Assembly (NCBI GenBank): GCA_015494465.1
Contig: WGBD01000001.1
Span: 244,477-308,476 of the forward strand
Source: Candidatus Omnitrophota bacterium
Lineage (GTDB): Bacteria > Omnitrophota > Gorgyraeia > S143-82
DNA length: 64,000 bases
Direction: 5' to 3'
Both the position numbers and the translations under genes were made by a program. Shown here in pieces: positions 6,270-60,997 of this stretch (positions are counted from its first letter, which is position 1; each line of letters starts with the position of its first letter). Below the pieces are notes generated by a model, which made no database searches, was not told where the DNA came from, and worked only from the letters and a program-made list of their open reading frames with translations.

Positions 6270-6592
6270 TCACCCTCCTTCACCACATAGATGTCAAAGT
6301 CCCTGCGGAAGTAGAGCCTGTGCCTCATCTTCTCCATCGTGGCTATCTTCGTCTCCAACACCGCCAACTCCAACCGCCTCTTGTTTATGGTCTCCTCCAG
6401 TTTCTTAAGTTCCTTTTCCTTCTTCTCTATGTCCATCTTCAACAGGTGCAACTTCTCGAGGTACGGTTCCAACCGTTCCTTTGCCGGACCGGTGTAGATG
6501 TATCCACCGCTCCGCCTCTCTGCGGAGTTCCCCACCTCATTAACTGCAACAACTATGCCAAACACCACCAGCGCCAAGACAAATCCCCTCAT
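6125..6592 (-). CDS. membrane-anchored coiled-coil protein with a C-terminal LysM (peptidoglycan-binding) domain
   Basis: The signal/anchor MRGFVLALVVFGIVVAV is followed by a KKEKELKKLEETINKRRLELAVLETK coiled coil. The C-terminal YVVKEGDCLWKISGKDEVYGDPSKWETIYTANRDVIDDPHTIYPGQILIIP is a LysM fold. Confidence 0.55.
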   Translation of the reverse strand: MRGFVLALVVFGIVVAVNEVGNSAERRSGGYIYTGPAKERLEPYLEKLHLLKMDIEKKEKELKKLEETINKRRLELAVLETKIATMEKMRHRLYFRRDFDIYVVKEGDCLWKISGKDEVYGDPSKWETIYTANRDVIDDPHTIYPGQILIIPRLR

Positions 6593-8878: not shown

Positions 8879-9481
8879 TTAGCGACTGGAGGCGCCCTTG
8901 CCGATAACCTTGGCCTTTATCTCCTCCAACTGACTGCCTATCATGGCGTCTATCCGGCCCATAGAGGTCTGTATTACGCACCCGCCCCGGGAGACATCCT
9001 CCCGGGGAACGAAGTTGACTTTTGCGGTTATCCCCTGAAGGATGTCGTCTTTCCGCTCGAGGAGAATCGGCTCGTCTTCAGGGGATATGAATATCGTCAT
9101 CTCCTCCACCTCCTTCATACGGGATATCGCAGAGGAGACGATGTTAAGGACCAAGGACCTGTCTGTATCCAAGGCAGTGTTGACTATCTTCTCCGCTATG
9201 GTGAAGGCCAGTTCCACCAGATCCTTCTCCGCCTCGCGATATATCTGCTCCTTGTAGGCCAACAACTCCTCCACGACCGAGCTCAAGGACCGGATCTGCT
9301 CCTCTATCTGGGCAAGGGCCTCCTTCTTGCCCGCCTCAAAACCCTGTTGGTAGGCACGCCGGACTGCCTCTTCCAGACTCTCTTTCGGATCCTTCTCTTC
9401 CTCCCTGGGCAGGGCCGGGTCTTCGGGAGAAAATCGCCTGACCAGTTCTTCCGAACCGGAATGGATGATCCTCTTCCCCAT
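8879..9481 (-). CDS. fliH: flagellar assembly protein FliH
   Basis: 200 aa. The C-terminal GGCVIQTSMGRIDAMIGSQLEEI is typical of FliH. It lies between fliG and fliI. Confidence 0.7.
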   Translation of the reverse strand: MGKRIIHSGSEELVRRFSPEDPALPREEEKDPKESLEEAVRRAYQQGFEAGKKEALAQIEEQIRSLSSVVEELLAYKEQIYREAEKDLVELAFTIAEKIVNTALDTDRSLVLNIVSSAISRMKEVEEMTIFISPEDEPILLERKDDILQGITAKVNFVPREDVSRGGCVIQTSMGRIDAMIGSQLEEIKAKVIGKGASSR

Positions 9482-9484
9482 CCC

Positions 9485-10519
9485 TTACACCACCAACTCG
9501 TCCTCTTTTCCACCCCGACCGGATATCACTATCTCTCCTGCCTCCTCCAGCCTGCGGATTATGGCCACTATCCTCTGCTGGGCCTCCTCCACGGTGCGCA
9601 GCCTCACCGGTCCCATAAACTCCATCTCCTCCTTTATCGCCTCCGCAGCCCGCTTGGACATGTTCTTGAATATCTTCTCCTTCACCGCATCACTGGCACC
9701 CTTAAGGGCAACAGCCAGTTCCTTGGTGTCCACTTCCTTGAGGACCTGCTGGATACCGCGGTCGTTGATGTGGATGATGTCCTCAAAGACGAACATAAGC
9801 TTCCGCACCTCGTCTACCAGCTCCGGCTCGGTCTCCTCCATCGCCTCGAGTATCATCTTCTCCGTGCTCCGGTCCACATAGTTCAGTATCTCCGCGGTGG
9901 TCTTCACCCCTCCGGCAGTGGCGAGTCCTTGTGAAAAGAGGGAGGACAACTTGTGCTCAAGGGTCTTGCCTATGTCCATAACGATGTCCGGTGGGGTCCT
10001 GTCCATGGTGGTGATCCGTCGGGTTACCTCTATCTGCAGTTCCACCGGAAGAGAAGAGAGAATGCTCGCTGCGTACTCGGGCTCGAGATAGGAGAGTATC
10101 AGGGCAATGGTCTGAGGGTGTTCGTTCTGTATGAAGTTCAACAACTGCGAGGGCTCAGTCCGCTTCAGGAACTCAAACGGCGACTCCCCCGCCTTGCCTC
10201 CGACCTTGGCAATCAACTCCTGGGCCTTCTCCGGGCCCAGCGCTGCCTCCAAAAACTTCTGCGCGGTGAGCATGCCCCCCTTGATGAGCCGTCGCTTCTC
10301 CAAAAACCCCTCCCGAAACTCCCGCAGAACCGCATCTATCACCTCCTTGGAGACCGGCCCCAGATTGGCTATCTCCTTGGTGAGGAGTTCCACCTCGTGT
10401 TCGTCGAGGCGCTTAAAGATCTCGGCTGCCTTCTGCTGACCTATGGCCAACAGGAATACCGCTGCCTTCTGACGGGGGGTTAGGGCAGATGGGTCCTTTA
10501 TCACCTCTTCCTGAGGCAT
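9485..10519 (-). CDS. fliG: flagellar motor switch protein FliG
   Basis: 344 aa. LTPRQKAAVFLLAIGQQKAAEIFKRLDEHEVELLTKEIANL and the C-terminal torque helix region are FliG-like. Confidence 0.9.
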   Translation of the reverse strand: MPQEEVIKDPSALTPRQKAAVFLLAIGQQKAAEIFKRLDEHEVELLTKEIANLGPVSKEVIDAVLREFREGFLEKRRLIKGGMLTAQKFLEAALGPEKAQELIAKVGGKAGESPFEFLKRTEPSQLLNFIQNEHPQTIALILSYLEPEYAASILSSLPVELQIEVTRRITTMDRTPPDIVMDIGKTLEHKLSSLFSQGLATAGGVKTTAEILNYVDRSTEKMILEAMEETEPELVDEVRKLMFVFEDIIHINDRGIQQVLKEVDTKELAVALKGASDAVKEKIFKNMSKRAAEAIKEEMEFMGPVRLRTVEEAQQRIVAIIRRLEEAGEIVISGRGGKEDELVV

Positions 10520-11964
10520 CAGGACTCGCCCTCCTCTCCTTCCAGATACTCCCTCACCACATCCGCAGCCAGATCGTAGTTGTCCCCTATCACTTCACCG
10601 ATGTCCGGGGTACGGGGGCGCCGAGGGATCTGAGGCTTGACCTCGCTCACCGGCCTGGGCAGGCTCTGGGAGATGGACTTTATCGTGTTCTGCACGAAGA
10701 TTATCGCTATCAATAAGAGTATGCCCGCACCCGCGTACTTACCCACTTCCAAGGCAAGGGCCAGCATCTGTTCTTGACTCGCCTTCTTCTCTTGCTCTTT
10801 CAAGGCGGTCTTGTCAAACGGTATCTCGTTTATGGTAATGGTATCGCCCCGGGCGGGGTCCAGCCCCACTGCCTGGGCGACGAGGTCCTTGAGTTTGTTC
10901 TTCTCCTCCTCGGAGCGGGGCACATATTCCTTTTTGCCTCCTTTCTCCTCGTACTTCCCGTCCACCACCACCGCCACTGCCAAACGCTTTATGTTACCGG
11001 TAGACTCCACTATCCGGGCAACCGTCTTGCTCACCTCGTAGTTGGTAATCGCGTGCTCCTTTACCCCCTGACCGTCCGCAGAGGGCAGGACCTCTTTGGA
11101 GCTCTCTTCACTCCTGGGCACCAAAGACTCGGGATCGAACTTCTCCTCGGTCTTCTCTATCTTGGTGAAATCCAGATCCGCATTCACCCTCACCAAGGCC
11201 TTACCCGGCCCCAGCACCCCTGCCAGCATAGATGTGGCCTTCTGTTCCAGATACCGCTCCACGCTGCGCTTGACATCCAACTGGGCAGAGGACAGACCCT
11301 CTGCGGTGTCCATACCACCGTAAAGCAGGTCCCCGTAGGAATCTACCACGGTGATGTTCTCGGGTTTCAGCCCCTCCACCGAGCTGGCCACCAGGTGCAC
11401 TATCGCCCTCAACTGGGACTTGCTTAGCCCGGTGCTCGTATCCACCACCACCGATGCGCTCGGGGGTATGCGCTCCTCCTCGAACAACTCCCGCTTGGGC
11501 AGGGCAAGGTGCACCCTCGCACTGCGGATCCCCTTTATCGTGGATATCGTGCGGGCCAGTTCCCCTTCTAAGGCCCGCTTGTAATTGATCTGCTGGAGGT
11601 AATTGGTGGTGGTAAGGGAACTCTTGTCGAATATCTCGTATCCTACGCCCTTGCCCTGAGGCAGACCCTCCGAGGCAAGGGCGATCCTTGCCTGATAGAC
11701 ATACTTGCTCGGGACCATAATCACACTGCCCTTCACCTTCACCGGCACATTCATCTCCGCTAGTTTCTGTTGGATGGCCCCGGCATCTTGGGGATCAAGG
11801 TTTGCGTAGAGCACCGCATAATCCGGCTGGGCCAACCAGACCACCATCGCCACTATTACTATCAAAGAGGAGAAGAACACCAATCCCACGCTCAACTTCT
11901 GGGCAGAGGACATCTTGTTGAAGACGAGCAAGAACTGGCGGAGTATCTTGAGAAAATCACCCAT
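10519..11964 (-). CDS. fliF: flagellar MS-ring protein FliF
   Basis: 481 aa. It has an N-terminal TM segment and the YVYQARIALASEGLPQGKGVGYEIFD and RIPPSASVVVD motifs, followed by a C-terminal TM segment. Confidence 0.9.
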   Translation of the reverse strand: MGDFLKILRQFLLVFNKMSSAQKLSVGLVFFSSLIVIVAMVVWLAQPDYAVLYANLDPQDAGAIQQKLAEMNVPVKVKGSVIMVPSKYVYQARIALASEGLPQGKGVGYEIFDKSSLTTTNYLQQINYKRALEGELARTISTIKGIRSARVHLALPKRELFEEERIPPSASVVVDTSTGLSKSQLRAIVHLVASSVEGLKPENITVVDSYGDLLYGGMDTAEGLSSAQLDVKRSVERYLEQKATSMLAGVLGPGKALVRVNADLDFTKIEKTEEKFDPESLVPRSEESSKEVLPSADGQGVKEHAITNYEVSKTVARIVESTGNIKRLAVAVVVDGKYEEKGGKKEYVPRSEEEKNKLKDLVAQAVGLDPARGDTITINEIPFDKTALKEQEKKASQEQMLALALEVGKYAGAGILLLIAIIFVQNTIKSISQSLPRPVSEVKPQIPRRPRTPDIGEVIGDNYDLAADVVREYLEGEEGES

Positions 11965-12012
11965 AAATCCCGCCTTTACCCCCCTGATACAACGGTTTTA
12001 TTTTCGTTTATA

Positions 12013-12047
12013 ACATTATACCACATAACCAATTACTCACCTAATCG
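12013..12047 (-). promoter_or_regulatory. extended -10 promoter (TGGTATAAT) upstream of fliF
   Basis: The minus strand reads TGGTATAAT (complement of 12015-12023) in the 68-bp fliM(1)-fliF gap, about 50 nt upstream of the fliF ATG. The SD is CAGGGGGGTAAAGG. Confidence 0.45.
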
Positions 12048-12974
12048 GAGCACCTTCCTGCCGTTCTCGTTCTGCCACTTCGCCTTGGAAATCGGCTTGC
12101 TCTCCAGGTAAATGTCCACCTCAGGCACCGCCTTCTTGTCCAACACTATGACATCGCCCACCTTTAACGAGACCACATCCTTGACCTCCAACCTTATCCT
12201 ATCCAGGATCCCCCGCACATTCGAGGGCACGACCAACAGGTTGGAACGCCACCTCCGCTTCAATTCCGGACGACCGGCCTTGCCCGTCTGGCGCTTCAAG
12301 AGCCCCGGTATGAGGGGCTCCAGGAAGTTTATCGGGTAGCAAAGGCTCAGTATACCGTGGGCATCCCCCATCCTCACATCGAAACAGACCAACAGGACCA
12401 GCTCGTTCGGGGCCAACACCTGAGCGAAGTAGGGATTCGACTCCTTCTCCACCACCTTGGGATTCATCTCCGCAACGCCCGACCACATCTGCCGGAACTC
12501 GGAGAGGATCTTATCTATCACCCGGGTGGCGACCGTCCACTCTATCTCGGTCAGTTCCCGGTTCGGTTGGGATATGGGCCGGGCACTGCCCCCCATCAGC
12601 CTGTCTATTATCACCAAGAGGATGCTGGGGTTTATCTCCACCACAATCTTCCCCGGTATCGGAGGGCACTCCACGACATTAAAACAGGTGGCCAGAGGCA
12701 CGGACATCAAGAACTCCTGATAGGTGAGTTGGTCGATGGAGGATATGGAGACATCCAGCATCGAGCGGGTATAGCCCGCTATCGCCAGGGCAAGGTTCCT
12801 GGCAAAACTCTCGTGAAGGGCCCTTAATCGGCGCAGGCCCTCTTTAGGAAAGCGTTCGGGGTTGCGGAAGTCGTATATCCGGGCCTTGCGCTTGCGCAAT
12901 TCCTCAGGAGTGATCTTCTTGCTTTTCGACAATAGCGCGTCTATTTCCTCCTGGGATAGGATCTTGTCTGCCAT
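12033..12974 (-). CDS. fliM: flagellar motor switch protein FliM, full-length paralog with the N-terminal CheY-P binding peptide
   Basis: 313 aa. The N-terminus MADKILSQEEIDALLS contains the canonical LSQxEIDALL CheY-binding motif. A CheC-like middle domain and a C-terminal SpoA/FliN-like domain follow. A GAGGGTG SD sits 9 nt upstream. It starts 4 bp after the GH57 stop. Confidence 0.85.
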   Translation of the reverse strand: MADKILSQEEIDALLSKSKKITPEELRKRKARIYDFRNPERFPKEGLRRLRALHESFARNLALAIAGYTRSMLDVSISSIDQLTYQEFLMSVPLATCFNVVECPPIPGKIVVEINPSILLVIIDRLMGGSARPISQPNRELTEIEWTVATRVIDKILSEFRQMWSGVAEMNPKVVEKESNPYFAQVLAPNELVLLVCFDVRMGDAHGILSLCYPINFLEPLIPGLLKRQTGKAGRPELKRRWRSNLLVVPSNVRGILDRIRLEVKDVVSLKVGDVIVLDKKAVPEVDIYLESKPISKAKWQNENGRKVLRLGE

Positions 12975-12978
12975 AACT

Positions 12979-15378
12979 TCACACCCTCACCCTTATTCGC
13001 CTTCCCAACTCCTCCCACAATACCTTCAGGTCCGGCAATATCTTATCCCGGGCTTCTTTATTGTAATGGATAAACACATTCTGCAGTTCCCAAAGGTTCA
13101 CCTGTATCCTCAACCTCGCGGACAACTCCAACAGCCTCAACAGATCCGCAAGGACTTCCCTATTCACCTCCTCGGAAAGGCGTACGACCAAGCCCTCCAG
13201 TATCCTCTCCAAGGCCTCCTTCACCTGCCCCACCTCAACCGAGCCACCGTAGCCCTCTATCTCCTCGATAACCGCGATTACCTGAGAATAGGTCTCGTCG
13301 TCAAGACTGCCCGAGGCCAGCAACGACTTCAGCCTGCGGTTCAGGACCTGCTGGATGACCAAGGTAAGGGTGAAGGGTAGGGAGTAGTTCAGGGCCCTCA
13401 AGCCTTCAAAGAATATCTGATAGGCGTCAAACAGAGACTCAAATGTCTCCTCAAAGTGGACCAGGGTCTCCTTAACCACCCGATCCAGTATCTTCTGTCT
13501 CTCGTCTATGACCACCACATCCATACCGTAGTAGGAGTGGCCAAAGTAGAGGTCCATCCTGCGAATCAACTCCGTCAGGTTGTGATCCCTGAAGGCAGAG
13601 GATATCCCGTTGATAAACTCACCAAAACCCGCGTCGTCGAATCCCTCCTTGAGCGAACACCTGACATCGTGTGCCCCACTGTAGAAGACCACGAACTCAA
13701 AAGCCCTCTCCTCCTCGGTAGGCAGATGGCCTATCTTCAGCCGACCCACGCTTATCTGGTAGTCGTTGAACGCGTCGCGGTAGAACTCGTCGCTGTCCAC
13801 TGCATAGACATACATCCGCACCGGATTGTCCTCCAGAGGAAGGAAGAGGTTGTATATGGCAAAGTGGGCAGACATCTCCTCTATCCCCCGCCTCCGCACC
13901 TTGGCGAAGTTTTCGTATATCCACGCACCGTCGTGGAACTCCTTTATGTTGCTCTTGGCCTCGGCCAGTATGGACTTTATCTCCTCCTCCACGCCGTCGA
14001 AGCCCAGGTCCTCTAGCAGTTCGATACACCGCACCGCGTAGGTCAGAATCTGGGTGGCCTCAAGGCCGGATATCTCGTCAAAAAACCAGGCACAACTGGT
14101 GAATATGAACAGGGAAAACTTCCCCGCCTCCAGTGCCTTCCATATCCTTACCCGCTCCTCCCGGGAGAGGCTCTTTCCGATCCTCTCCTCCAGCCACTCC
14201 CGGCGCAGGTGCGGTTTCAGCATCACCTGAATGTAATCCTTTAAGAGGGCATCCGGATCCCCGTACTCCCTTAAGACCTCCCCGATGGCCCCGTCGGTTA
14301 TCTCCCGCAAGCGGTCCATCGCCCTGCGCAGGGGCGTGCGCCACTTCTGGTTCCACTCATTACCACCTATCTTGCACCCGCAATCACTGCGCCAGCGCTC
14401 CACCCCGTGGGCACAGCTCCAGGAGGTGTTCTCCCATATCTCCACCTCAAACATCGGCGGGAACTTCGCAAGGAAGACAGAATAGTTGGTAATCTCCACC
14501 TCCGGATGCTCAAGAGCTCGCTTTATCGCGTAGGCAAGACCCATCTCCCCAAACTTGTGGTGGTGCCCGTAGGTCTCCCCGTCAGTGGCCACATTCACTA
14601 GCACCGCCGGCACATCCGAAAACGGCAGGGGCGCATCCGCCACCCCCAACAGTCTCTGAAAAAATGCCTCTCCGCTGTTCAACAGTCCCCCAAAGGCGAT
14701 GTCCTGAGCGATGGGCCCGTCGTAAAAGAACAGGACTATGCTCTTGCCCCCGGGCAACCTGCAGAGATAGGGAAACCGGCAGTCTATTCCGCCCTGAACC
14801 TCTATCCAGCGCTTGCTCCCCAACTTCCTAAAGCGTCTGGCCTGATAAGGCGAGAGTATCGTAAACTTTATACCGTGGTCCGCCAGGACCTCCAGAGTCT
14901 CTGTGTCCACCGCTGTCTCCGACAGCCACATCCCTTCGGGGTCGCGGTGGAAGTGATAGCGAAAGTCCTCTATCGCCCACTTCACCTGTATCTCTTTGTC
15001 CTTCCGGGTGGCCAAGGGCATTATTATGTGGTTGTATATCTGGGCGATGGCATTGCCGTGGCCGTTGTTCCTGTGGACGCTGGCGGTGTCCGCCTCTATT
15101 ATCTTCCTGTAGGTGGCAGGGGAATACCTCTCCAGCCAGCGCATCAGGGTGGGACCGAAGTTGAAACTTATGTACTCGTAGTTGTTCAACAACTCCACGA
15201 TGTACTGCTCCGCATCCAGTATCCTCGCAGCGGTATTCGGAGTGTAACACTCCGCATCCACCCTTTGATTCCAGTCGTGGTAGGGGTAGGCGGAATCCTG
15301 GCGCTCTATCACATCCAGCCAAGGGTTCTCCCTAGGGGGTTGATAAAAGTGGCCGTGAATACAGATGTACTTCTTCAT
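12979..15378 (-). CDS. glycoside hydrolase family 57 protein (alpha-amylase / 4-alpha-glucanotransferase / branching-enzyme family)
   Basis: 799 aa. The N-terminal ICIHGHFYQPPRE box, GMWLSETAV (nucleophile Glu) and ATDGETYGHH (acid/base Asp) are GH57 signatures. There is no signal peptide. Confidence 0.8.
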   Translation of the reverse strand: MKKYICIHGHFYQPPRENPWLDVIERQDSAYPYHDWNQRVDAECYTPNTAARILDAEQYIVELLNNYEYISFNFGPTLMRWLERYSPATYRKIIEADTASVHRNNGHGNAIAQIYNHIIMPLATRKDKEIQVKWAIEDFRYHFHRDPEGMWLSETAVDTETLEVLADHGIKFTILSPYQARRFRKLGSKRWIEVQGGIDCRFPYLCRLPGGKSIVLFFYDGPIAQDIAFGGLLNSGEAFFQRLLGVADAPLPFSDVPAVLVNVATDGETYGHHHKFGEMGLAYAIKRALEHPEVEITNYSVFLAKFPPMFEVEIWENTSWSCAHGVERWRSDCGCKIGGNEWNQKWRTPLRRAMDRLREITDGAIGEVLREYGDPDALLKDYIQVMLKPHLRREWLEERIGKSLSREERVRIWKALEAGKFSLFIFTSCAWFFDEISGLEATQILTYAVRCIELLEDLGFDGVEEEIKSILAEAKSNIKEFHDGAWIYENFAKVRRRGIEEMSAHFAIYNLFLPLEDNPVRMYVYAVDSDEFYRDAFNDYQISVGRLKIGHLPTEEERAFEFVVFYSGAHDVRCSLKEGFDDAGFGEFINGISSAFRDHNLTELIRRMDLYFGHSYYGMDVVVIDERQKILDRVVKETLVHFEETFESLFDAYQIFFEGLRALNYSLPFTLTLVIQQVLNRRLKSLLASGSLDDETYSQVIAVIEEIEGYGGSVEVGQVKEALERILEGLVVRLSEEVNREVLADLLRLLELSARLRIQVNLWELQNVFIHYNKEARDKILPDLKVLWEELGRRIRVRV

Positions 15379-15382
15379 CCCC

Positions 15383-15745
15383 TCAATCCACCTTCTTCAC
15401 ATACACGAAGCGCTCCCTGCGGATGCGCTCACCGTCCTTCCACCAGATAAGTAATTCGTACCTCTTAAGGCCCTTCAACCTGTCCTGATAGGGCAAGTCC
15501 AGATCCGATTCCGCAACCTTCCAGTGATACTTGCCTTCCGTCCCCGACGAGGCAGAGAGCACCCCCCGCTTCAATTCCTCTATCTTCCTCTGGGCTAGTA
15601 GCCCTGCCTGAGTCCACATCTCTGCTCGGGTATTGCCCTTCATCCCGGAGTTGAAGGCAGGCATGAGCCCTATTATCCCTATCACCAGGATCAAACTCGC
15701 AATCAATACCTCTATAAGGCTAAACCCAAGCCTACTCCACTGCAT
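15383..15745 (-). CDS. prepilin-type N-terminal cleavage/methylation domain protein (pseudopilin)
   Basis: 120 aa. GFSLIEVLIASLILVIGIIGLMP is a class-III signal with a conserved Glu at +5. Confidence 0.6.
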   Translation of the reverse strand: MQWSRLGFSLIEVLIASLILVIGIIGLMPAFNSGMKGNTRAEMWTQAGLLAQRKIEELKRGVLSASSGTEGKYHWKVAESDLDLPYQDRLKGLKRYELLIWWKDGERIRRERFVYVKKVD

Positions 15746-16271
15746 TCGCCATCACCTCGTAGGAAAAGACGGAATCGCTCCTATCCCCCTGCCACCTCAA
15801 CACGCACCGCACCGCCTTTGGTAGGTCCGGCCCACAGGTAACCTTCCAACCGTCGTAATAGTAATCCAACCGTGCCCTCTCCAGGCTATCCGTGAGGACC
15901 TCTTCCTCCCCTACCGTGGTGAAGTCGTAGTCCGTGTCCCACTCCACTGCCCGGTAGAACTTGTCCCCCTCGAAACGATAGTGTATCTCCGCCATGTGAA
16001 AGTCATCTCCCCGCTTGCGGGTGCTCAGGAAGACCAGTCTATCTGCCGATCCCTGGCACCTGACGCACATCCCCGTAAGATCTCTATAGAGTACCTCCGA
16101 AATCAATCGGGCCCTCTCCCTTTTCTCCGATCGCTCCAGTCCCCGGGAATAGACGCGGCTGAAACTCCTGAACAACAAATAGGCACTGCTCACGATAAAG
16201 GAAAAGACCGCCACCGCGATGAGCAACTCCACCAAGGTAACACCCAATTTGTCCCGGCACCCGTTAAACAT
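15732..16271 (-). CDS. prepilin-type N-terminal cleavage/methylation domain protein (pseudopilin)
   Basis: 179 aa. GVTLVELLIAVAVFSFIVSSAY is a class-III signal with a Glu at +5. Confidence 0.6.
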   Translation of the reverse strand: MFNGCRDKLGVTLVELLIAVAVFSFIVSSAYLLFRSFSRVYSRGLERSEKRERARLISEVLYRDLTGMCVRCQGSADRLVFLSTRKRGDDFHMAEIHYRFEGDKFYRAVEWDTDYDFTTVGEEEVLTDSLERARLDYYYDGWKVTCGPDLPKAVRCVLRWQGDRSDSVFSYEVMANAVE

Positions 16272-16321
16272 ACATCGCTACCTATTAACATTAGTTTATC
16301 ACAACTACCGTCGCCAAGTAA

Positions 16322-16330
16322 TGGTATACT
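16322..16330 (+). promoter_or_regulatory. possible extended -10 element (TGGTATACT) for mnmG
   Basis: TGGTATACT lies 12 nt upstream of the mnmG ATG, in the 70-bp divergent intergenic region. This would imply a very short leader. Confidence 0.25.
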
Positions 16331-16341
16331 GTTAGGATACC

Positions 16342-18156
16342 ATGGCAACCGGCACGGATGTAGACATAATCGTGGTAGGCGGAGGCCACGCGGGGATAGA
16401 GGCCTGCCTCGCCTGTGCCCGGATGGGATTGGAGACCCTCCTTATAACCCACTCTTTGGACAAGATAGGCGAGATGTCCTGTAACCCCTCCATAGGGGGG
16501 ATAGGCAAGGGACAACTCGTGCGGGAGATAGACGCCCTCGGCGGGGAGATGGCCCGGGCGATAGACGAGACCGGGATACAGTTTCGCATCCTGAACAAGA
16601 GGAAAGGACCCGCAGTACAGGCCCGGCGGGCGCAGGCGGACCGGTTCAGGTACCGCGATTACATGAAACACCGCCTGCTCAATACCGAAAACCTGTTCGT
16701 CTGGCAGGCAGAGGTCACGCGCCTGCTCATCAAGGACAATCGGGTGACGGGGGTTGAGGACTCCTACGGGAGGAAGTTTACCGCTAAGGCGGTGATACTC
16801 GCCACCGGCACATTCATGCACGGGCTCATACACATCGGACCAACCCAGATCCCCGGAGGCAGGCTCACCGATCCCGCCAGTCAGGAACTCCCCGAGCAAC
16901 TGAAGACCTTAGGCCTCAGGATAGAGAGGTTCAAGACCGGCACCTGCCCCCGCTTGGATGCCCGGAGCATAAACTACGAGAGGATGCAAGTCCAATACGG
17001 GGAGGAGCCCGTCCCCTACTTCTCGTTCTACAGCGAAAAAGGCCCTATAGAGCAGGTGCCCTGCTACCTGACCTACACCACCCCAGAGACGCACCGGATA
17101 ATCCAGTCCGCCTTGCCCTTTTCTCCCCTCTACACCGGGGTGATAAAGGCAAGAGGCGTTCGCTACTGCCCCTCCATAGAGGACAAGATAGTGCGCTTTC
17201 CCCATCACGAACGGCACTACATATTCGTAGAGCCCGAAGGGCGACAGACCACCGAGGTCTATCCCAACGGAACCTCCAATTCTCTTCCACTGGAGTTTCA
17301 GGAGAAGATGATACGCTCCATCCCCGGGCTGGAGGAGGCCAAGATACTCAAACCCGGTTACGGCATAGAGCACGACTACATAGACCCCCGCCAGCTCTAT
17401 CCGAGCCTTGAGACCCGCCTCGTAGAGAACCTCTTTACCGCAGGCCAGATAAACGGGACCACCGGCTACGAGGAGGCTGCCTGTCAGGGACTCATCGCCG
17501 GGATAAATGCAACCCTAAAGGTCAGGGGCAAACCGCCCCTCATCTTGCGCAGGGACCAGGCCTACATAGGCGTCCTGATAGACGACCTCACCCGCAAAGG
17601 CACCGACGAGCCCTACCGTATGCTCTCCTCCCGGGTGGAACACAGACTCGCCCTGAGGGAGGACAATGCAGACCTGCGCCTGATGGAGATAGGCTATCAG
17701 TTAGGACTGATAAGTGAAGAGAGGATCCAAAAGAAGCGCGAGAAAGAGAAGGAGATTTCAAGGATTCGGGTGTTCTTTCAGACCCACCGCCTCAACGACG
17801 GTAACACCGTAGAGAAGGCCCTCTCCCAGCCCGGCGTATGGCTAAAGGACCTCTTCCCCGAACCCGAGAAGACGCTAAACTTTGACCCCGAGGCCCTGCG
17901 GGTGGCAGAGGTGGAGGCAAAGTACGCGGGATTCATAGAGCGGGCAAGGCGACAGGCAGAGCGGATCCACCAACTGGACAGGGTAAAGATACCTCCGGAG
18001 ATGGACTACGACGCCATCCCTTCACTGCCCAGAGAGGCCCGGGAGAAACTGAAACAGAGGAGACCCCAGACACTGGGCGAGGCCTACGACATACCCGGGA
18101 TAGGGCTGGACACGATAAACCTGTTGTGGACCCTGATAAAACGAAAGGAGGCCTGA
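16342..18156 (+). CDS. mnmG: tRNA uridine 5-carboxymethylaminomethyl modification enzyme MnmG (GidA)
   Basis: 604 aa. It has the FAD-binding IIVVGGGHAGIEAC and the NPSIGGIGKGQLVREIDALGG, GPRYCPSIEDK and FTAGQINGTTGYEEAA motifs. It is too long for TrmFO. Confidence 0.9.
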   Translation: MATGTDVDIIVVGGGHAGIEACLACARMGLETLLITHSLDKIGEMSCNPSIGGIGKGQLVREIDALGGEMARAIDETGIQFRILNKRKGPAVQARRAQADRFRYRDYMKHRLLNTENLFVWQAEVTRLLIKDNRVTGVEDSYGRKFTAKAVILATGTFMHGLIHIGPTQIPGGRLTDPASQELPEQLKTLGLRIERFKTGTCPRLDARSINYERMQVQYGEEPVPYFSFYSEKGPIEQVPCYLTYTTPETHRIIQSALPFSPLYTGVIKARGVRYCPSIEDKIVRFPHHERHYIFVEPEGRQTTEVYPNGTSNSLPLEFQEKMIRSIPGLEEAKILKPGYGIEHDYIDPRQLYPSLETRLVENLFTAGQINGTTGYEEAACQGLIAGINATLKVRGKPPLILRRDQAYIGVLIDDLTRKGTDEPYRMLSSRVEHRLALREDNADLRLMEIGYQLGLISEERIQKKREKEKEISRIRVFFQTHRLNDGNTVEKALSQPGVWLKDLFPEPEKTLNFDPEALRVAEVEAKYAGFIERARRQAERIHQLDRVKIPPEMDYDAIPSLPREAREKLKQRRPQTLGEAYDIPGIGLDTINLLWTLIKRKEA

Positions 18157-18157
18157 G

Positions 18158-18313
18158 ATGCTGTTCCTGTTAGGGATTGTCTCACCGCTATTGTCCATCG
18201 TGATCGGCGTGCTGATCTTGATATTCCCCCAACTGCTCAACTACCTGGTGGCAATATACCTCATCCTGTCGGGGATAATCGGCCTTTTGATGCGCAATGC
18301 ACTGATGTATTGA
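18158..18313 (+). CDS. small two-helix membrane protein (DUF3096-like); not in the ORF track because it is under 60 aa
   Basis: The ATG lies 8 nt after a perfect AAAGGAGG. The 51-aa product MLFLLGIVSPLLSIVIGVLILIFPQLLNYLVAIYLILSGIIGLLMRNALMY is two hydrophobic helices. The start overlaps the mnmG stop (TGAGATG). Confidence 0.5.
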   Translation: MLFLLGIVSPLLSIVIGVLILIFPQLLNYLVAIYLILSGIIGLLMRNALMY

Positions 18314-18384
18314 TCTGAACAATATAATTCACGAGATCCTGATAAAATTAGCTATTTCGAGGGCAATCTATCCTCTGGAACATC

Positions 18385-19694
18385 TTACTTCAACAGCACC
18401 TTGCCGTTCTCTAATCTATAGCCCACCCTATACCTTTTGTCCTTAGTGTAAACCACCCTCCCTTCTTCGTAGACCATTGCTTCATCTACATTCACCTGTC
18501 CCGCTAAAGCCACTAATACATACCCAGGATCGTTTTCGTAGGCTGGGTCGTTATTGCCTATCACCACTGGATGCTCTGAAACCACCCCTATGTACGGGCC
18601 ATTCCCGCGGTACCTTCTAATCATGCCCGTATCAACATCCAGCTCCACCAAATCCCCAGGCTCAAGTGCCTCTTCTGCAGGCAAGTACTCCGCGTAATCT
18701 CCTCCTGTACTGCATACCGTCCGGAACCGTGCATTGGCGGAGGAGAAGTTTACCGAACCTATCCCGTGACCGGTTAAGGTGGAACCCCAGAGGTCTATCG
18801 TCCCCGCACTCCGTACATCGATCCCTGAGCCACTCATAAACAGTGGCCCACCTGCAGCGGTGATAGCAATGCCTGGCTTAGGAGAAGAGGGAATCCTCGG
18901 ATCGTTACAATCCAGCGGTCTGTCGTTGGCAATCATTACACCCTTCTCCCCCCATAGATGTATTGATCCCCCTTTAGATAGAACCGCCACCGATGTGTTC
19001 TGTGGCACAGGCAGGTCATGTACAGGACCGGTTCCAGCAATCAGTGTCCCGACCTGCCTCCCACTGCCATCTAACATCCCTCCAAGCATGGTTATACACC
19101 CATACCTAGAGTTATAACTAAACCATCCTATCAGCCCCTCGGAATTACCATCAAATATTCCTATTCCCCAATCGTCGACGCCATCCGATCCTATCGCAGT
19201 CCAGTAATCGTTGCTCGCAACTTCGTTGTTAACCGCCACGACTTTAGCCGAGTTCAAAGCCAATCCAGAATCATTGGTAAAGAATGTATCTCCTATCTCT
19301 CCCCCACGAGCAGACTTCCTTCCACCCTCAACCCATTCTCTACCGGCGTTGCTGATCCTGCGAAATTCTCTCCAATTATCACCCCTCCTGCTACATCCAA
19401 TCTCGAATTTGTAGGGGCCACTCCTATCCCCAGGGATCCCAACACCGCCAAAGCGGTGGTAGGCGAAAGGCTGGTTTCCGGTACCACTCCCCCACAATTC
19501 CATCCTCCGGTACTGGAATGGAACTGGCAGGTACTACTAAAGGCATCAGATCCCACCGCCATCGCCTCAGCCCGCAGTTCCTTGTACTCACCGTAGGGCG
19601 AGGGATAATAGACGGAAACCGAACTCTTTGGGTGTGCAAGGCTCTCCCAAGCAACTAACAACACTGTTGCTAAATACGCCTTCCTCATCTCCAA
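18385..19694 (-). pseudogene. secreted Gly/Ser/Thr-rich protein of unknown function, interrupted by a frameshift at a G5 run
   Basis: The 5' piece (19293-19694) encodes the signal peptide MRKAYLATVLLVAWESLAHP and the N-terminal domain. The body continues in another frame (18385-19503), whose first 70 codons are R/W-rich nonsense. The good translation switches frame at CCCCC (19292-19296). Confidence 0.45.
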
Positions 19695-19725
19695 CCTGCT
19701 GAAAGTTCGTTGTAAAGTGTTAACC

Positions 19726-20478
19726 TTAAAAGCTACTCGCCAAAGACTTCACCAGCAGGTTCCAGCCGTCCGCCAGCACGAACAACAGCAGTTTAAACGG
19801 AAGAGATATCATTATCGGCGGGACCATCATCATACCCATTGCCATCAATACGCTGGCCACGACCAGATCTATTACCAAAAACGGGACATACAACAAGAAG
19901 CCTATGGTGAACGCAGTGCGCAGTTCGCTTATCACGAACGCGGGGATCAAGACAGACATCGGGACATCTATTCTCCTCGACGGCACAGGCGTGTGTGATA
20001 TCTGAAAGAACAGGGCCAGATCCTTGTTCCGGGTCTGTTTCAACATAAATTTCTTGAAGGGGAGCTGTATGCGTCTGCCTGCCTCGTAAATGGTTATCTC
20101 GCCGTTCATGTACGGTTTTACCGCCGTGGACATTGCCTCCCTCCAGACTGGGGCCATTATCATAGCGGTCATGAACAGGGCCAGACCCACGAATATCTGG
20201 GTGGGTGGCAACTGCTGGGTACCGAGGGCGTGGCGCAAAAAGGCAAAGACGACGATTATCCTGGTAAAGGAGGTCATCATCAACACGATCGACGGAGCCA
20301 AGGACAAGACGGTGAAGAGCAAGAACAACTGTACGGTAAAACTGACCTCTTCCTGGGTCTGGGCAGGTTGCACGAAGGTAAACTTCGGCACCCACCACGA
20401 GGGTGTAGCGGAGTACCCCAGGTTAGCACCTAACAACAGGCCAAAAGCCACCACCAAGGCCTTCGTATTAAGCCTCAT
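19726..20478 (-). CDS. fliP: flagellar biosynthetic protein FliP
   Basis: 250 aa. Signal peptide, then FTRIIVVFAFLRHALGTQQLPPTQIFVGLALFMTAMIMAPV and ISELRTAFTIGFLLYVPFLVIDLVVASVLMAMGMMMVPP. Confidence 0.9.
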   Translation of the reverse strand: MRLNTKALVVAFGLLLGANLGYSATPSWWVPKFTFVQPAQTQEEVSFTVQLFLLFTVLSLAPSIVLMMTSFTRIIVVFAFLRHALGTQQLPPTQIFVGLALFMTAMIMAPVWREAMSTAVKPYMNGEITIYEAGRRIQLPFKKFMLKQTRNKDLALFFQISHTPVPSRRIDVPMSVLIPAFVISELRTAFTIGFLLYVPFLVIDLVVASVLMAMGMMMVPPIMISLPFKLLLFVLADGWNLLVKSLASSF

Positions 20479-21293: not shown

Positions 21294-22169
21294 CTAGTAT
21301 GTCACCACCGATACGAGCTTTACTGCCCGCTTCTTCTCCACTCGGCCTAAGACCCCCTTAAACAGCAACCTATCGTTGACCTGCACGTGAACCTTATCCG
21401 ACACCGGGGTCCTGACATCTATCACATCCCCAGGCTTGAGCCTCTTGACCTGGGAAAGCGCCAACTGGATAGGCGGAAAGGTCACGACCAGAGGGACATC
21501 CACATCCTTGACCCTCTCCTCCCCCAAGCGGGCCTCGCCTTTAGCCCTGGCCCGGAGCATGTGCTGGGCACTCAACTTGGGCAACAGCTCCTCCAAAGAT
21601 ATGAACGAAACGACCAAGGATATCTTCCCACTCACATCACCGATAACCGCGGAGTAATCGCAAAATAAAACCGGCTCGTTCGGGGAAAACGACTGCACGA
21701 ACTGGGGATTCGACTCTATCTCCACCAGATTGGGTTCTAGGTTGACCAGGGAATGCCATACCTCCTTTATGGCCCCACTTACCACCCTGAAAAGACGACG
21801 GATAAGGACGAGTTCGAGCTCGGTGAAGTCCCGGATCTTGGGAGCACCCCTTCCCTGTCCGCCAAGCAACCTGTCTATCAGAGAAAACATAAATTCCGGA
21901 GAGACATACACCACCATCTGACCTTCCAGGGGAGGAATGTCCCATATACCTATACAGGAGGGGACGCTCCAGCCTGCCATTACCTCTCCAAACGGGGTCT
22001 GGGATACGGATTCTAGGCGCACCTGCACCACGGTCCTCAACATCGCAGACCATTCCACTGTAGCCACTCTAGAGAAGTTCTCGTGGAGTATCTGAAGGTT
22101 TCTTAACTGGTCCTTTGATATCTTCTCTGGTTTGTTGAAGTCGTATGTCTTGACCTCTTTGGTAATCAC
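21294..22169 (-). CDS. fliM: FliM paralog lacking the N-terminal CheY-P binding peptide
   Basis: 291 aa. It starts at MITKEVKTYDFNKPEKISKDQLRNLQILHENF, which matches FliM from about residue 35 onward. The middle and SpoA domains are intact. It sits in the canonical fliL-fliM-fliN context. Confidence 0.75.
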   Translation of the reverse strand: MITKEVKTYDFNKPEKISKDQLRNLQILHENFSRVATVEWSAMLRTVVQVRLESVSQTPFGEVMAGWSVPSCIGIWDIPPLEGQMVVYVSPEFMFSLIDRLLGGQGRGAPKIRDFTELELVLIRRLFRVVSGAIKEVWHSLVNLEPNLVEIESNPQFVQSFSPNEPVLFCDYSAVIGDVSGKISLVVSFISLEELLPKLSAQHMLRARAKGEARLGEERVKDVDVPLVVTFPPIQLALSQVKRLKPGDVIDVRTPVSDKVHVQVNDRLLFKGVLGRVEKKRAVKLVSVVTY

Positions 22170-24126: not shown

Positions 24127-24129
24127 GAC

Positions 24130-60719: not shown

Positions 60720-60984
60720 TCACCACTTCCGGTATAAGAGAGAACACACTCACCGTAAACCCGACGATGATGTTCAGGAACCACGGGAGCAACAGGGCAA
60801 CCAAGAGCATCACCGCCAGTATCTTCGGCACGAAGGTAAGGGTCATCTCGTGTATCTGGGTAACCGCCTGAAATATGCTCACCAAGAGTCCCACCACCAG
60901 ACTACCCAAGAGAAGGGGCCCGGCAATCATAAACCCCACCCACAATCCTTTGCGCAAGACCTCTACCGCCAGATCCGGCCCCAT
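60712..60984 (-). CDS. fliQ: flagellar biosynthesis protein FliQ
   Basis: 90 aa. LWVGFMIAGPLLLGSLVVGLLVSIFQAVTQIHEMTLTFVPKI is FliQ-like. Confidence 0.85.
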   Translation of the reverse strand: MGPDLAVEVLRKGLWVGFMIAGPLLLGSLVVGLLVSIFQAVTQIHEMTLTFVPKILAVMLLVALLLPWFLNIIVGFTVSVFSLIPEVVNV

Positions 60985-60997
60985 CTTCTTCGCCCCT

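What the first reader, a model, noticed from the sequence alone, without database searches (positions are those of the whole stretch)
12033..16271. FliM with the CheY-binding peptide is translationally coupled to a GH57 glycosidase and two pseudopilin genes
The pseudopilin, pseudopilin, GH57 and fliM(1) genes are separated by 4 bp or overlap by 14 bp. The order suggests an operon in which a type-IV-pilin-like pair, a cytoplasmic alpha-glucan enzyme and the chemotaxis-responsive switch protein are co-expressed. fliF then has its own extended -10 promoter (TGGTATAAT) in the 68-bp gap that follows. This is not a canonical position for fliM.
Basis: seen in the sequence. Interest (0 to 1): 0.6.

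Follow-up and report, generated by a model that had tools for sequence, protein, structure and literature searches.

The report
Glycogen-enzyme operon carrying a flagellar switch gene
In a group of uncultured Omnitrophota bacteria, the flagellar switch gene that receives the chemotaxis signal sits directly behind a glycogen-type enzyme gene and one or two pilin-like genes as one compact conserved block, while a second switch-gene copy lacking the signal-docking peptide holds the usual flagellar position; this is a real, lineage-specific oddity of moderate interest.

Summary
On the minus strand, a GspJ-like prepilin (16271-15732), a PilV/GspI-like prepilin (15745-15383), a GH57+DUF3536 alpha-glucan enzyme (15378-12979) and FliM(1) (12974-12033, N-terminal LSQEEIDALL) are joined by -14, +4 and +4 bp. 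A 68-bp gap with TGGTATAAT then precedes fliF.

Tight spacing alone means little here: the median same-strand gap in the window is 3 bp. The evidence is synteny. In every relative sampled with a FliM(1) orthologue (43-84% identity, mostly Omnitrophota MAGs), GH57 lies immediately upstream of fliM(1), although the flanks differ (fliF, flgF, MscS, glycogen phosphorylase). None of 80 generic fliM loci has an alpha-glucan gene nearby.

More distant relatives have a trehalose-phosphatase-like HAD hydrolase gene and GH65 upstream of fliM, across a spacer, followed by fliY and flgFG. So fliM(1) is the lineage's ancestral CheY-responsive fliM, not a stray copy. FliM(2), in the fliL-fliN slot, lacks the CheY-docking peptide in all 11 orthologues.

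Best reading: loss of an intergenic spacer captured fliM(1) into the upstream transcription unit, giving co-expression without a demonstrated biochemical link. A regulatory link between carbon storage and chemotactic switching is not excluded. GH57 keeps its catalytic residues and is not a branching-enzyme type.

The parts
16272..16341 (.). 70-bp divergent intergenic region between mnmG (+) and the pilA-like gene (-). It is the only non-coding space upstream of the block in this genome, so it is the candidate promoter region for the block.
   Evidence: The consensus scan gives a weak sigma-70-like site, TTGCCA-16-TACCAT, at 16348..16321(-). The count of such sites in the region is at chance level, so the promoter is not established. 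No sigma-54-like or sigma-28-like site is present here.
15732..16271 (-). pilA-like gene: 179-aa prepilin-type protein, minor-pseudopilin GspJ-like. Leader MFNGCRDKLG|VTLVE.
   Evidence: PF07963 N_methyl 25.1 bits (cutoff 21.2). T2SSJ 18.5 bits, below the cutoff of 28; the orthologues in L002 and L007 pass at 33.7 and 34.6 bits. TIGR02532 is passed and gspJ is sub-threshold. Present in the window, L002, L007 and L009; absent in L003 and L005.
15383..15745 (-). pilB-like gene: 120-aa prepilin-type protein of PilV/GspI size and type. Leader MQWSRLG|FSLIE. It overlaps the pilA-like gene by 14 bp.
   Evidence: TIGR02532 passed (17.5 bits against 16.3). The best matches, PilV, XpsI and GspI, are all sub-threshold. 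A single-sequence AlphaFold2 model has pLDDT 77 and shows a helix at residues 10-60 plus a 4-stranded sheet, which is a pilin-like shape. Orthologues at 45-54% identity lie upstream of GH57 in L002, L003, L005, L007 and L009, the loci where that upstream DNA is present.
12979..15378 (-). GH57 + DUF3536 alpha-glucan-active enzyme, 799 aa. It has no signal peptide, because the catalytic region 1 (HGHFYQPP) starts at residue 8.
   Evidence: PF03065 9.8e-17 and PF12055 5e-70. H8, H10, Q13, P14, E154 (WLSE, by position the nucleophile) and D266 (DGE, by position the acid/base) are invariant in a 20-sequence alignment of clade and non-clade members. Not a branching-enzyme equivalog. No sequence relative in the PDB.
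12033..12974 (-). fliM(1): 313-aa flagellar switch protein with a FliM middle domain and a FliN-like C-terminal domain. Its start codon lies 4 nt after the GH57 stop, and a GAGG Shine-Dalgarno core lies at -14..-11.
   Evidence: PF02154 1.2e-56 and PF01052 4.7e-11. TIGR01397 244.7 bits against a cutoff of 219.6, covering profile positions 1-315. Sequence.
12930..12962 (-). Codons for residues 5-15 of FliM(1), ILSQEEIDALL, the CheY-P docking peptide.
   Evidence: The motif LSQEE[IV][DN]ALL is kept in all 10 clade members and in 4 outgroup FliMs.
11965..12032 (-). 68-bp fliM(1)-fliF spacer with the extended -10 element TGGTATAAT (12015-12023), 50 nt upstream of the fliF ATG. No terminator.
   Evidence: 5 matches against 0.83 expected. 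RNA fold z-score -0.14; no terminator-like site in the spacer. TGATATAAT lies upstream of fliF in L007.
10519..11964 (-). fliF, the first gene of the downstream fliF-fliG-fliH-fliI-fliJ... unit. This is context, not part of the conserved block.
   Evidence: Downstream neighbours of fliM(1) differ in relatives: flgF in L002 and L008, a GGDEF gene then fliF in L007, MscS in L003, GlgP in L005.
21294..22169 (-). fliM(2): 291-aa paralogue in the canonical fliL-fliM-fliN slot, without the CheY-docking N-terminus. It is the likely partner or alternative of FliM(1) in the C ring.
   Evidence: 31% identity to FliM(1). TIGR01397 238.1 bits, aligned from profile position 30; an in-frame stop lies 20 codons upstream; all 11 orthologues are 291-294 aa.

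Best explanation
The stretch is a genuine, lineage-specific operon-like block in an Omnitrophota subclade: (pilA-like)-pilB-like-GH57/DUF3536-fliM(1).

fliM(1) is the ancestral, CheY-P-responsive switch gene of this lineage. In more distant relatives it lies just downstream of alpha-glucan genes but across a spacer, and it heads a fliM-fliY-(cheY-cheX)-flgFG... array. In the subclade the spacer shrank to about 0-4 bp. fliM(1) then had no promoter of its own and became dependent on transcription, and probably on translational re-initiation, from the upstream GH57 unit. After that the block could only move as a whole. This explains why every later rearrangement broke the chromosome after fliM(1) and never between GH57 and fliM(1).

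The products need not interact. GH57 remains a cytoplasmic alpha-glucan enzyme. FliM(1) supplies the CheY-P docking peptide to a C ring whose canonical-slot paralogue FliM(2) lacks it. fliF (extended -10 promoter) and flgF (sigma-54 promoter in relatives) are separate units downstream.

Shown: gene identities, junctions, synteny, the motif distribution between the two FliMs, and the downstream promoter motifs.
Inferred: co-transcription, translational coupling, co-assembly of the two FliMs, and the order of evolutionary events.
For: - Junctions of -14, +4 and +4 bp, with no terminator.
- GH57-to-fliM(1) junctions in relatives are +1 (L002), -8 (L003), 0 (L005), +4 (L007), +1 (L008) and +3 (L023). 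Only L009 has a spacer of about 200 bp.
- The block is conserved at 43-84% FliM identity while the flanks differ. Upstream neighbours are mnmG (divergent), DUF3096, fliP, a metallo-beta-lactamase-fold gene (Lactamase_B/ODP) and an Orn/DAP/Arg-decarboxylase-family gene. Downstream neighbours are fliF, GGDEF, flgF, MscS, GlgP and an unknown gene.
- Outgroups L024, L105 and L106 show HAD/trehalose-phosphatase-like gene, GH65, fliM and fliY, continued by flgFGA... in L105 and L106 (L105 also has cheY-cheX; L024 continues with polysaccharide genes). Their GH65-fliM gaps are 14, 68 and 456 bp, and the L105 and L106 gaps contain A+T-rich -10-like elements.
- L002 and L008 keep fliM(1) followed by flgFGAHI. 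A perfect sigma-54 motif (TGGCAC-N5-TTGCA) lies in the fliM(1)-flgF gap, so fliM(1) sits upstream of, and outside, that flagellar unit.
- 0 of 80 generic fliM loci have GH57, GH65, GH13, GH77 or GlgP within 5 kb upstream or 3 kb downstream.
- In three other PVC/Omnitrophota genomes, GH57+DUF3536 sits in alpha-glucan clusters without fliM.
- Near-zero spacing is the genome-wide norm, which fits compaction rather than special design.
- In a rough NJ tree, FliM(1) plus the outgroups form one group near PVC FliMs, and FliM(2) is a separate clade.
- GH57 catalytic residues are invariant.
Against: - No transcript data exist, so internal promoters inside the GH57 coding sequence cannot be excluded. 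One example is a TACAAT about 80 nt upstream of the fliM(1) ATG, seen by eye.
- An alpha-glucan gene sits immediately 5' of fliM in two sister groups, but with different enzymes (GH65 against GH57). L005 places fliM(1) between GH57 and glycogen phosphorylase. A purely neutral account does not predict this pattern; it could reflect selection for co-regulation.
- L009 keeps the adjacency despite a spacer of about 200 bp, so dependence on an upstream promoter is not the only force maintaining the order.
- The upstream boundary of the unit differs between genomes, so no single conserved promoter was identified.
- Whether the basal lineages (L003, L005) have FliM(2), or flagella at all, could not be determined.
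Confidence: 0.55

Rival explanations
1. Selected regulatory coupling. fliM(1) is deliberately expressed with alpha-glucan (glycogen/trehalose) turnover genes. The share of CheY-responsive FliM(1) relative to CheY-blind FliM(2) in the C ring would then track the carbon-storage state, and so would the cell's ability to switch or steer.
For: - An alpha-glucan gene lies immediately 5' of fliM in two sister groups with different enzymes: GH57 and GH65 with a HAD/trehalose-phosphatase-like gene.
- L005 has GH57-fliM(1)-GlgP.
- 0 of 80 generic fliM loci show this.
- fliM(1) lies outside the sigma-54 flgF unit and outside the extended -10 fliF unit.
- FliM(2) lacks the docking peptide in all 11 orthologues.
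Against: - There are no expression data.
- In the outgroups the gaps are 14-456 bp and contain likely promoters, so co-transcription is not ancestral.
- Tight packing of unrelated genes is general in this genome.
- The pilin-like genes have no place in this model.
- Co-assembly of the two FliMs is unproven.
Confidence: 0.25
2. Physical partnership. The GH57+DUF3536 protein, or the pilin-like proteins, bind the switch through FliM(1) and modulate the motor. This would resemble the reported action of fumarate reductase or the EpsE glycosyltransferase on FliG in model bacteria (recalled from prior knowledge, not checked here).
For: The only support is the conserved tight adjacency with stop/start overlap or a gap of 4 bp or less in 7 of 8 lineages, which can favour co-translational assembly.
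Against: - GH57 keeps every catalytic residue and the family-typical length of about 800 aa, with no extra domain.
- The same family is housekeeping in many genomes, where it sits in alpha-glucan clusters.
- The outgroups pair fliM with GH65 instead.
- No GH57-FliM fusion appears among the 120 hits listed for each of the two searches.
Confidence: 0.07
3. FliM(1) has left the flagellum and serves another machine, for example by coupling CheY-P to a type-IV-filament built with the two pilin-like proteins. FliM(2) would then be the only true C-ring FliM.
For: - fliM(1) is always adjacent to a prepilin-like gene wherever the DNA upstream of GH57 is available.
- In L003 and L005 no flagellar gene lies within 10 kb, and L005 has a PilT/GspE-type ATPase 2 kb downstream.
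- The GGXG FliG-contact motif is GGS[A/S] in most clade members, against GGQG in FliM(2).
Against: - FliM(1) passes the FliM equivalog cutoff over its full length, FliN-like domain included.
- L002, L008 and the outgroups place it at the head of flg rod/ring genes.
- The outgroups appear to have it as their only FliM type, since no FliM(2)-type hit lies between 61% and 37% identity.
- No type-IV-filament machinery gene and no other prepilin gene occurs in the 64-kb window.
Confidence: 0.05
4. There is no operon. The genes are merely adjacent and are transcribed from promoters embedded in upstream coding sequence, and the conserved order is inherited synteny.
For: - Unrelated genes are equally tightly packed across the window.
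- The upstream boundary differs between genomes.
- L009 has a spacer of about 200 bp.
Against: The flanks have been reshuffled several times while the block stayed intact down to 43% FliM identity. This is not expected for unlinked units. No promoter-like site was detected upstream of fliM(1).
Confidence: 0.08

Closest known systems
Canonical fliL-fliM-fliN(Y) switch-gene arrangement of the Bacillus/spirochaete-type fla operon
   Same: The window and its relatives contain exactly this arrangement, motA-motB-fliL-fliM-fliN-fliO-fliP..., for FliM(2). Both FliMs are bona fide FliM by the TIGR01397 cutoff.
   Different: The FliM in the canonical slot has no CheY-docking N-terminus. The FliM that has one is encoded elsewhere, behind a GH57 gene.
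Expanded or diversified C rings with extra FliM/FliN-family paralogues (Campylobacter jejuni FliM/FliN/FliY, PMC6946799; Bacillus FliM + FliY, from prior knowledge)
   Same: One flagellar system appears to use more than one FliM/FliN-family protein. The outgroup relatives have FliM plus a 305-aa FliY-like protein.
   Different: Here the extra protein is a second full FliM, not a FliY. The CheY-docking peptide is present in only one of the two, and that one is transcriptionally detached from the flagellar genes.
Dual flagellar systems in which the secondary FliM lacks the CheY-binding N-terminus (Shewanella putrefaciens CN-32, Bubendorfer et al.; recalled from prior knowledge, the paper itself was not read here)
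   Same: A FliM paralogue lacking the N-terminal CheY-docking motif coexists with one that has it.
   Different: Those organisms have two complete flagellar gene sets. The window shows single copies of fliF, fliG, fliH, fliI, fliN, fliO-R, flhA, flhB, flhF and flhG. No second set accompanies fliM(1) in any locus.
GH57 + DUF3536 alpha-glucan enzymes (Amo45, amylolytic, PMC4017763; PoGH57, suggested 4-alpha-glucanotransferase, PMC11206854)
   Same: Same two-domain architecture and length. The catalytic residues are conserved.
   Different: Members of this family normally sit in glycogen/trehalose clusters with GH13, GH65 and GH77 genes, not between pilin-like genes and fliM. The activity of this protein is untested.
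GspI/GspJ (PilV/PilW) minor pseudopilin pair of type II secretion and type IV pili
   Same: Prepilin leader with G|(F/V)(S/T)L(I/V)E. Sizes of 120 and 179 aa. T2SSJ domain in orthologues. Helix-plus-sheet model.
   Different: The order is J-like then I-like. No GspG, H, K, D, E or F, and no pil machinery gene, occurs within 64 kb. The scores are sub-threshold for the equivalog models. The J-like gene is dispensable, being absent in L003 and L005.

Membership tests
FliM (flagellar motor switch protein) | Full-length match to the FliM equivalog model, with a FliM middle domain and a FliN-like C-terminal domain | tested here: met
   TIGR01397 244.7 bits (cutoff 219.6), profile positions 1-315 of 320. 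PF02154 1.2e-56 and PF01052 4.7e-11.
FliM (flagellar motor switch protein) | N-terminal CheY-P docking peptide (LSQxEIDALL) | tested here: met
   Residues 6-15 are LSQEEIDALL, conserved in all clade members and outgroups. Actual CheY binding was not tested.
FliM (flagellar motor switch protein) | GGXG motif of the middle domain (FliG contact) | tested here: inconclusive
   The window has GGSA. Clade members have GGS[A/S/G]. FliM(2) has GGQG.
FliM (flagellar motor switch protein) | Encoded with other flagellar genes, classically fliL-fliM-fliN | tested here: not met
   Never next to fliL/fliN in any locus examined. It is adjacent to fliF here, to flgF in L002 and L008, and to non-flagellar genes in L003 and L005.
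Glycoside hydrolase family 57 (DUF3536 subfamily) | GH57 catalytic domain plus DUF3536, with the catalytic Glu and Asp and conserved region 1 | tested here: met
   PF03065 61.6 bits (cutoff 21.2). PF12055 236.5 bits. E154, D266, H8, H10, Q13 and P14 are invariant. Assignment of the catalytic roles is by position, from prior knowledge of GH57.
GH57 glycogen branching enzyme | Match to a branching-enzyme equivalog model | tested here: not met
   NF041133 18 bits against a cutoff of 1000. NF041566 14 bits against a cutoff of 920.
Type IV prepilin-like proteins / minor pseudopilins | Prepilin-type N-terminal cleavage/methylation motif | tested here: met
   TIGR02532 scores 20.1 and 17.5 bits (cutoff 16.3). 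PF07963 scores 25.1 bits (pass) for the pilA-like protein and 19.9 bits (just below 21.2) for the pilB-like protein.
Type IV prepilin-like proteins / minor pseudopilins | Specific GspJ or GspI/PilV identity | tested here: inconclusive
   T2SSJ passes in the L002 and L007 orthologues (33.7 and 34.6 bits against 28) but not in the window copy (18.5). PilV, GspI and XpsI are all below their cutoffs. Foldseek against the PDB gave no significant hit.
Type IV prepilin-like proteins / minor pseudopilins | Genomic association with T2SS or type-IV-pilus machinery (secretin, ATPase, platform, major pilin) | tested here: not met
   None in the 64-kb window. Only L005 has a T2SSE-type ATPase nearby.
Operon (single transcription unit) | Same strand, no terminator or promoter between genes, order conserved across rearrangements | tested here: met
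   The L009 spacer is an exception.
Operon (single transcription unit) | One continuous transcript; translational coupling | not testable with these tools

The most novel reading that the evidence does not exclude
A single flagellar motor is built from two FliM paralogues with divided labour. FliM(2) is structural and CheY-blind, and is expressed with the flagellar genes. FliM(1) is CheY-responsive and is expressed from a carbon-storage (alpha-glucan) operon. The cell's energy-reserve state would then set how many CheY docking sites each C ring has, and so whether the cell steers or simply runs. This would be metabolic gating of chemotactic switching by subunit exchange.
Probability: 0.2. Interest if true: 0.7.

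Novelty: new variant of a known kind. Interest (0 to 1): 0.45.

Why it matters
Flagellar switch genes are among the most positionally conserved genes in bacteria, and FliM's N-terminal peptide is the universal output site of chemotaxis signalling.

Here, a whole uncultured lineage encodes the only CheY-docking FliM behind a glycogen-type enzyme gene and outside the flagellar promoter hierarchy. Within the crown group, a CheY-blind FliM is added in the normal slot.

If the two FliMs share one C ring, this is a natural experiment in tuning the number of CheY-binding sites per motor. It may also be a link between carbon reserves and steering.

Even on the neutral reading, it is a clean case of operon capture by genome compaction: a gene loses its spacer and becomes locked to an unrelated neighbour through several later rearrangements. 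It also warns annotators that the fliM in the canonical slot in these genomes is not the chemotaxis-responsive one.

Tried and rejected
- Metagenome scan with a FliM(1)-clade alignment. I used the 80 loci as a negative control instead.
- Do the basal lineages (L003, L005) possess FliM(2)? The cluster look-up gave no accessions. Tetranucleotide similarity places L107, which carries the most divergent FliM(2), nearer to L002 and L007 than to L005. This remains unresolved.
- Regulatory RNA or terminator. There is no Rfam match in 9000-20000, and the fliM(1)-fliF spacer folds no better than shuffled sequence.
- Sigma-28 and sigma-54 motifs in the window. Neither is enriched, and neither occurs upstream of the block.
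- Pul-like idea (pseudopilins plus a secreted starch enzyme). Rejected because GH57 has no signal peptide and no T2SS core gene is nearby.
- Pseudo-enzyme idea for GH57. Rejected because the catalytic residues are invariant.
- Recent duplication as the origin of FliM(2). Not supported: it is 31% identical to FliM(1) and forms a separate clade.
- Literature. No paper in the searched library links FliM with GH57 or DUF3536, or describes Omnitrophota switch genes.
Full report
**1. What is in the sequence**

Between 16271 and 12033, the minus strand carries four ORFs:
- a 179-aa protein, 16271-15732;
- a 120-aa protein, 15745-15383, overlapping the first by 14 bp;
- a 799-aa protein, 15378-12979, after a 4-bp gap;
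- a 313-aa protein, 12974-12033, after a 4-bp gap.

A 68-bp spacer containing TGGTATAAT (12015-12023) precedes fliF (11964-10519). fliG, fliH, fliI and further flagellar genes follow. mnmG is divergent upstream (16342-18156, +).

Pfam and NCBIfam give these identities:
- Both small proteins are prepilin-type, with leaders ...KLG|VTLVE and ...RLG|FSLIE. The larger is GspJ-like and the smaller is PilV/GspI-like. Specific assignments are sub-threshold in the window copies, but T2SSJ passes its cutoff in two orthologues.
- The 799-aa protein is GH57 + DUF3536.
- The 313-aa protein is a full FliM (TIGR01397 244.7 bits against a cutoff of 219.6) beginning MADKILSQEEIDALL.

**2. A second fliM**

The window also holds fliM(2) (22169-21294, 291 aa) in the classical motB-motB-fliL-fliM-fliN-fliO-fliP position.
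- It is only 31% identical to FliM(1).
- It passes the FliM equivalog cutoff but aligns from profile position 30.
- An in-frame stop lies 20 codons upstream of its GTG start.
- All 11 orthologues are 291-294 aa.

FliM(2) therefore genuinely lacks the CheY-docking peptide. All other flagellar core genes seen in the window are single-copy.

**3. Is the tight spacing meaningful?**

Not by itself. Of 49 same-strand neighbouring pairs in the window, 29 are 4 bp apart or less, and the median is 3 bp. These include unrelated pairs such as asd-motB (3 bp) and ribonucleotide reductase-fliQ (13 bp). The genome is a set of long co-directional gene strings. '4 bp' is the background here, not a signal.

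**4. Synteny is the real evidence**

FliM(1) homologues form a tight clade of 10 clusters at 63-97% identity, then drop to 43% and below. GTDB record titles place three of the four clade genomes found there in Candidatus Omnitrophota; the fourth is labelled Planctomycetia.

In every clade locus retrieved, GH57+DUF3536 lies immediately 5' of fliM(1). Wherever the DNA upstream of GH57 is present (L002, L003, L005, L007, L009), the pilB-like gene lies 5' of GH57. The loci are L002, L003/4/10, L005/6, L007, L008 (cut within GH57) and L009. The pilA-like gene is present only in the window, L002, L007 and L009.

The flanks differ entirely.
- Downstream: fliF (window); a GGDEF gene then fliF (L007); flgF-flgG-flgA-flgH-flgI... 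(L002, L008); MscS (L003); glycogen phosphorylase and a PilT/GspE-type ATPase (L005).
- Upstream: divergent mnmG (window); co-directional mnmG-DUF3096 (L002); fliP (L007); unrelated genes (L003, L005).

GH57-to-fliM(1) junctions are +4, +1, -8, 0, +4 and +1 bp. Only L009 has a spacer of about 200 bp, which contains an inverted repeat.

The nearest outgroup FliM (P0011, 43% identity, L023) also has GH57 (54% identity) 3 bp upstream.

As a control, 80 generic fliM loci from metagenomes (33-40% identity) have no GH57, GH65, GH13, GH77 or GlgP gene within 5 kb upstream or 3 kb downstream. They show the usual fliL upstream and fliN downstream.

Conversely, the GH57+DUF3536 family is very large and widespread. 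In three other Omnitrophota/PVC genomes it sits in alpha-glucan clusters, with a HAD/trehalose-phosphatase-like gene, GH65, GH13/CBM48 and GH77, and without fliM.

**5. Where the arrangement comes from**

The next outgroups are P0012-P0014 at 39-40% identity. They share these features:
- a HAD/trehalose-phosphatase-like gene and GH65 directly upstream of fliM (the FliM carries ILSQE/DEVxALL);
- then a 305-aa FliY-like gene;
- then, in L105 and L106, the flgF-flgG-flgA-flgH-flgI... array, with cheY and cheX before it in L105. L024 instead continues with polysaccharide-related genes.

This downstream flg array is the same one that follows fliM(1) in L002 and L008.

In these outgroups the GH65-fliM gaps are 14, 68 and 456 bp. 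The L105 and L106 gaps contain A+T-rich -10-like elements.

A rough NJ tree groups the FliM(1) clade with these outgroups near PVC-type FliMs. FliM(2) forms a separate clade nearer Firmicutes/spirochaete-type FliMs. No FliM(2)-type protein was found between 61% and 37% identity.

So fliM(1) is the lineage's ancestral CheY-responsive fliM, and its neighbourhood to alpha-glucan genes is old. FliM(2) is a later addition in the crown group. What is new in the clade is the loss of the spacer, which fused fliM(1) to the GH57 unit.

**6. Transcription-unit boundaries**

No terminator-like structure lies between the four genes or in the fliM(1)-fliF spacer (fold z-score -0.14). There is no Rfam match.

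TGNTATAAT is enriched, with 5 matches against 0.83 expected. Four of the five lie 40-50 nt upstream of a called start codon: fliF, the mrp/parA-like gene, a thioredoxin-like gene and purL. The fifth lies inside the predicted 5' end of the 34357-36504 ORF. L007 has TGATATAAT about 57 nt upstream of its fliF, although a different gene precedes it.

In L002 and L008, the fliM(1)-flgF gap carries a perfect sigma-54 motif, TGGCAC-N5-TTGCA. fliM(1) therefore lies upstream of, and outside, the dedicated flagellar promoters in each genome. It has no detectable promoter of its own.

The block's own promoter was not identified with confidence. A weak sigma-70-like site lies in the 70-bp mnmG-pilA region. 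In L002 and L007 the block abuts the preceding gene by 1-2 bp.

**7. The enzyme**

The GH57 protein starts directly with catalytic region 1, so it has no signal peptide and is cytoplasmic. H8, H10, Q13, P14, E154 (WLSE) and D266 (DGE) are invariant across clade and non-clade members. It has the family-typical length and no extra domain. It is not a branching-enzyme equivalog.

Characterised DUF3536-type GH57 enzymes are an amylolytic enzyme (Amo45, PMC4017763) and a probable 4-alpha-glucanotransferase (PoGH57, PMC11206854). It therefore looks like a working alpha-glucan enzyme, not a recruited structural protein.

**8. Interpretation**

The best-supported account, at about 0.55, has four steps:
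- There was an old synteny of alpha-glucan genes followed by fliM.
- In one Omnitrophota subclade, genome compaction removed the spacer and the fliM promoter.
- fliM(1) thereafter depended on read-through, and probably on termination-reinitiation, from GH57.
- The block became indivisible, so later rearrangements always cut after fliM(1).

Functionally, FliM(1) supplies CheY-P docking sites to the switch, and FliM(2) (where present) does not.

The main rival, at about 0.25, is that the linkage is selected because it ties chemotactic competence to carbon-storage metabolism. Three observations favour it over a purely neutral story: the pairing of fliM with a different alpha-glucan enzyme (GH65) in the sister group, the GH57-fliM(1)-GlgP order in L005, and the persistence of adjacency in L009 despite a spacer.

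Three further readings are each unlikely, for the reasons listed under rivals: a direct GH57-switch interaction, a non-flagellar role for FliM(1), and 'no operon at all'.

The role of the pilin-like gene or genes is unexplained under all models. They are the only prepilin genes in 64 kb, and no type-IV-filament machinery is nearby.

**9. Verdict**

- This is a new variant of known kinds (flagellar switch operons, C-ring paralogue diversification), confined to an uncultured lineage.
- I found no description of it in the searched literature.
- Interest is moderate at 0.45. The most interesting element is the pair of FliMs, with the CheY peptide only on the copy expressed outside the flagellar hierarchy.

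Noticed in passing
window 21294-22169 (-): fliM(2) in the canonical fliL-fliN slot lacks the CheY-docking N-terminus. All 11 orthologues are 291-294 aa, and the clade is sharply isolated (61% identity, then 37%).
   Followed up: yes
window 22651-23325 and 23338-24126 (-): Two adjacent MotB-like genes lie upstream of fliL. The first has only a weak OmpA-like domain (22.6 bits, below the cutoff). The same pair occurs in L007 and L107. motA is about 22 kb away at 688-1449.
   Followed up: no
window, whole (e.g. 24126-24130, 60984-60998): Flagellar genes are strung head-to-tail with housekeeping genes: asd is 3 bp from motB, and ribonucleotide reductase is 13 bp from fliQ. The median same-strand gap is 3 bp and nearly all genes are on the minus strand.
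   Followed up: partly
window 12015, 28430, 36464, 36480, 42776: TGNTATAAT occurs 5 times against 0.83 expected. Four of the five lie 40-50 nt upstream of a called start codon; the site at 36464 lies inside the predicted 5' end of the 34357-36504 ORF. It is probably the main promoter type of this organism.
   Followed up: partly
window 19726-20478 vs 60712-60984; L107 1-20885: The flagellar super-operon is contiguous in L107 (fliI...motAB-fliL-fliM2-fliN-fliOPQR-flhBAFG-PilZ-fliA). In the window it is broken into three pieces: fliP is about 40 kb from fliQ, and the fliF...motA piece follows the GH57 block.
   Followed up: partly
window 16342-18313 (+) vs L002 4477-6642: mnmG-DUF3096 is divergent from the block in the window but co-directional and contiguous with it in L002, where DUF3096 ends 1 bp before the pilA-like gene. 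This implies a local inversion.
   Followed up: no
L002 10937-11050; L008 1303-1348: Perfect sigma-54 promoter motifs (TGGCAC-N5-TTGCA) lie between fliM(1) and flgF in two relatives. The only close match in the window is at 6545-6560 (-), upstream of the fliK region.
   Followed up: partly
L009 3784-3983: A spacer of about 200 bp between GH57 and fliM(1) carries a long inverted repeat (GAAGCATGGAG ... CTCCATGCTTC). It could be a small inserted element or a terminator.
   Followed up: no
L007 11036-13597: An 853-aa GGDEF diguanylate cyclase gene is inserted between fliM(1) and fliF in a relative. The window has a YcgR-type PilZ gene at 54023-54787, next to flhG.
   Followed up: no
window 28420-33771 (-) and 18385-19503 (-): A 1783-aa ORF and a 372-aa ORF have no Pfam or NCBIfam match. 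The 372-aa ORF lies between fliP and mnmG.
   Followed up: no
window, whole, vs L002-L009 and L107: The window is 53.6% G+C, while its closest relatives (74-79% FliM(1) identity) are 37-46%. Tetranucleotide correlation is only about 0.15 with L107 and L005. This points to a strong compositional shift in this lineage.
   Followed up: no
L105 8979-10744; L024 8977-9894: Outgroup relatives encode a 305-aa FliY-like protein with its own N-terminal VLSQEDKDSL motif directly after fliM, and L105 also has cheY and cheX after it. None of these genes is found in the window.
   Followed up: partly
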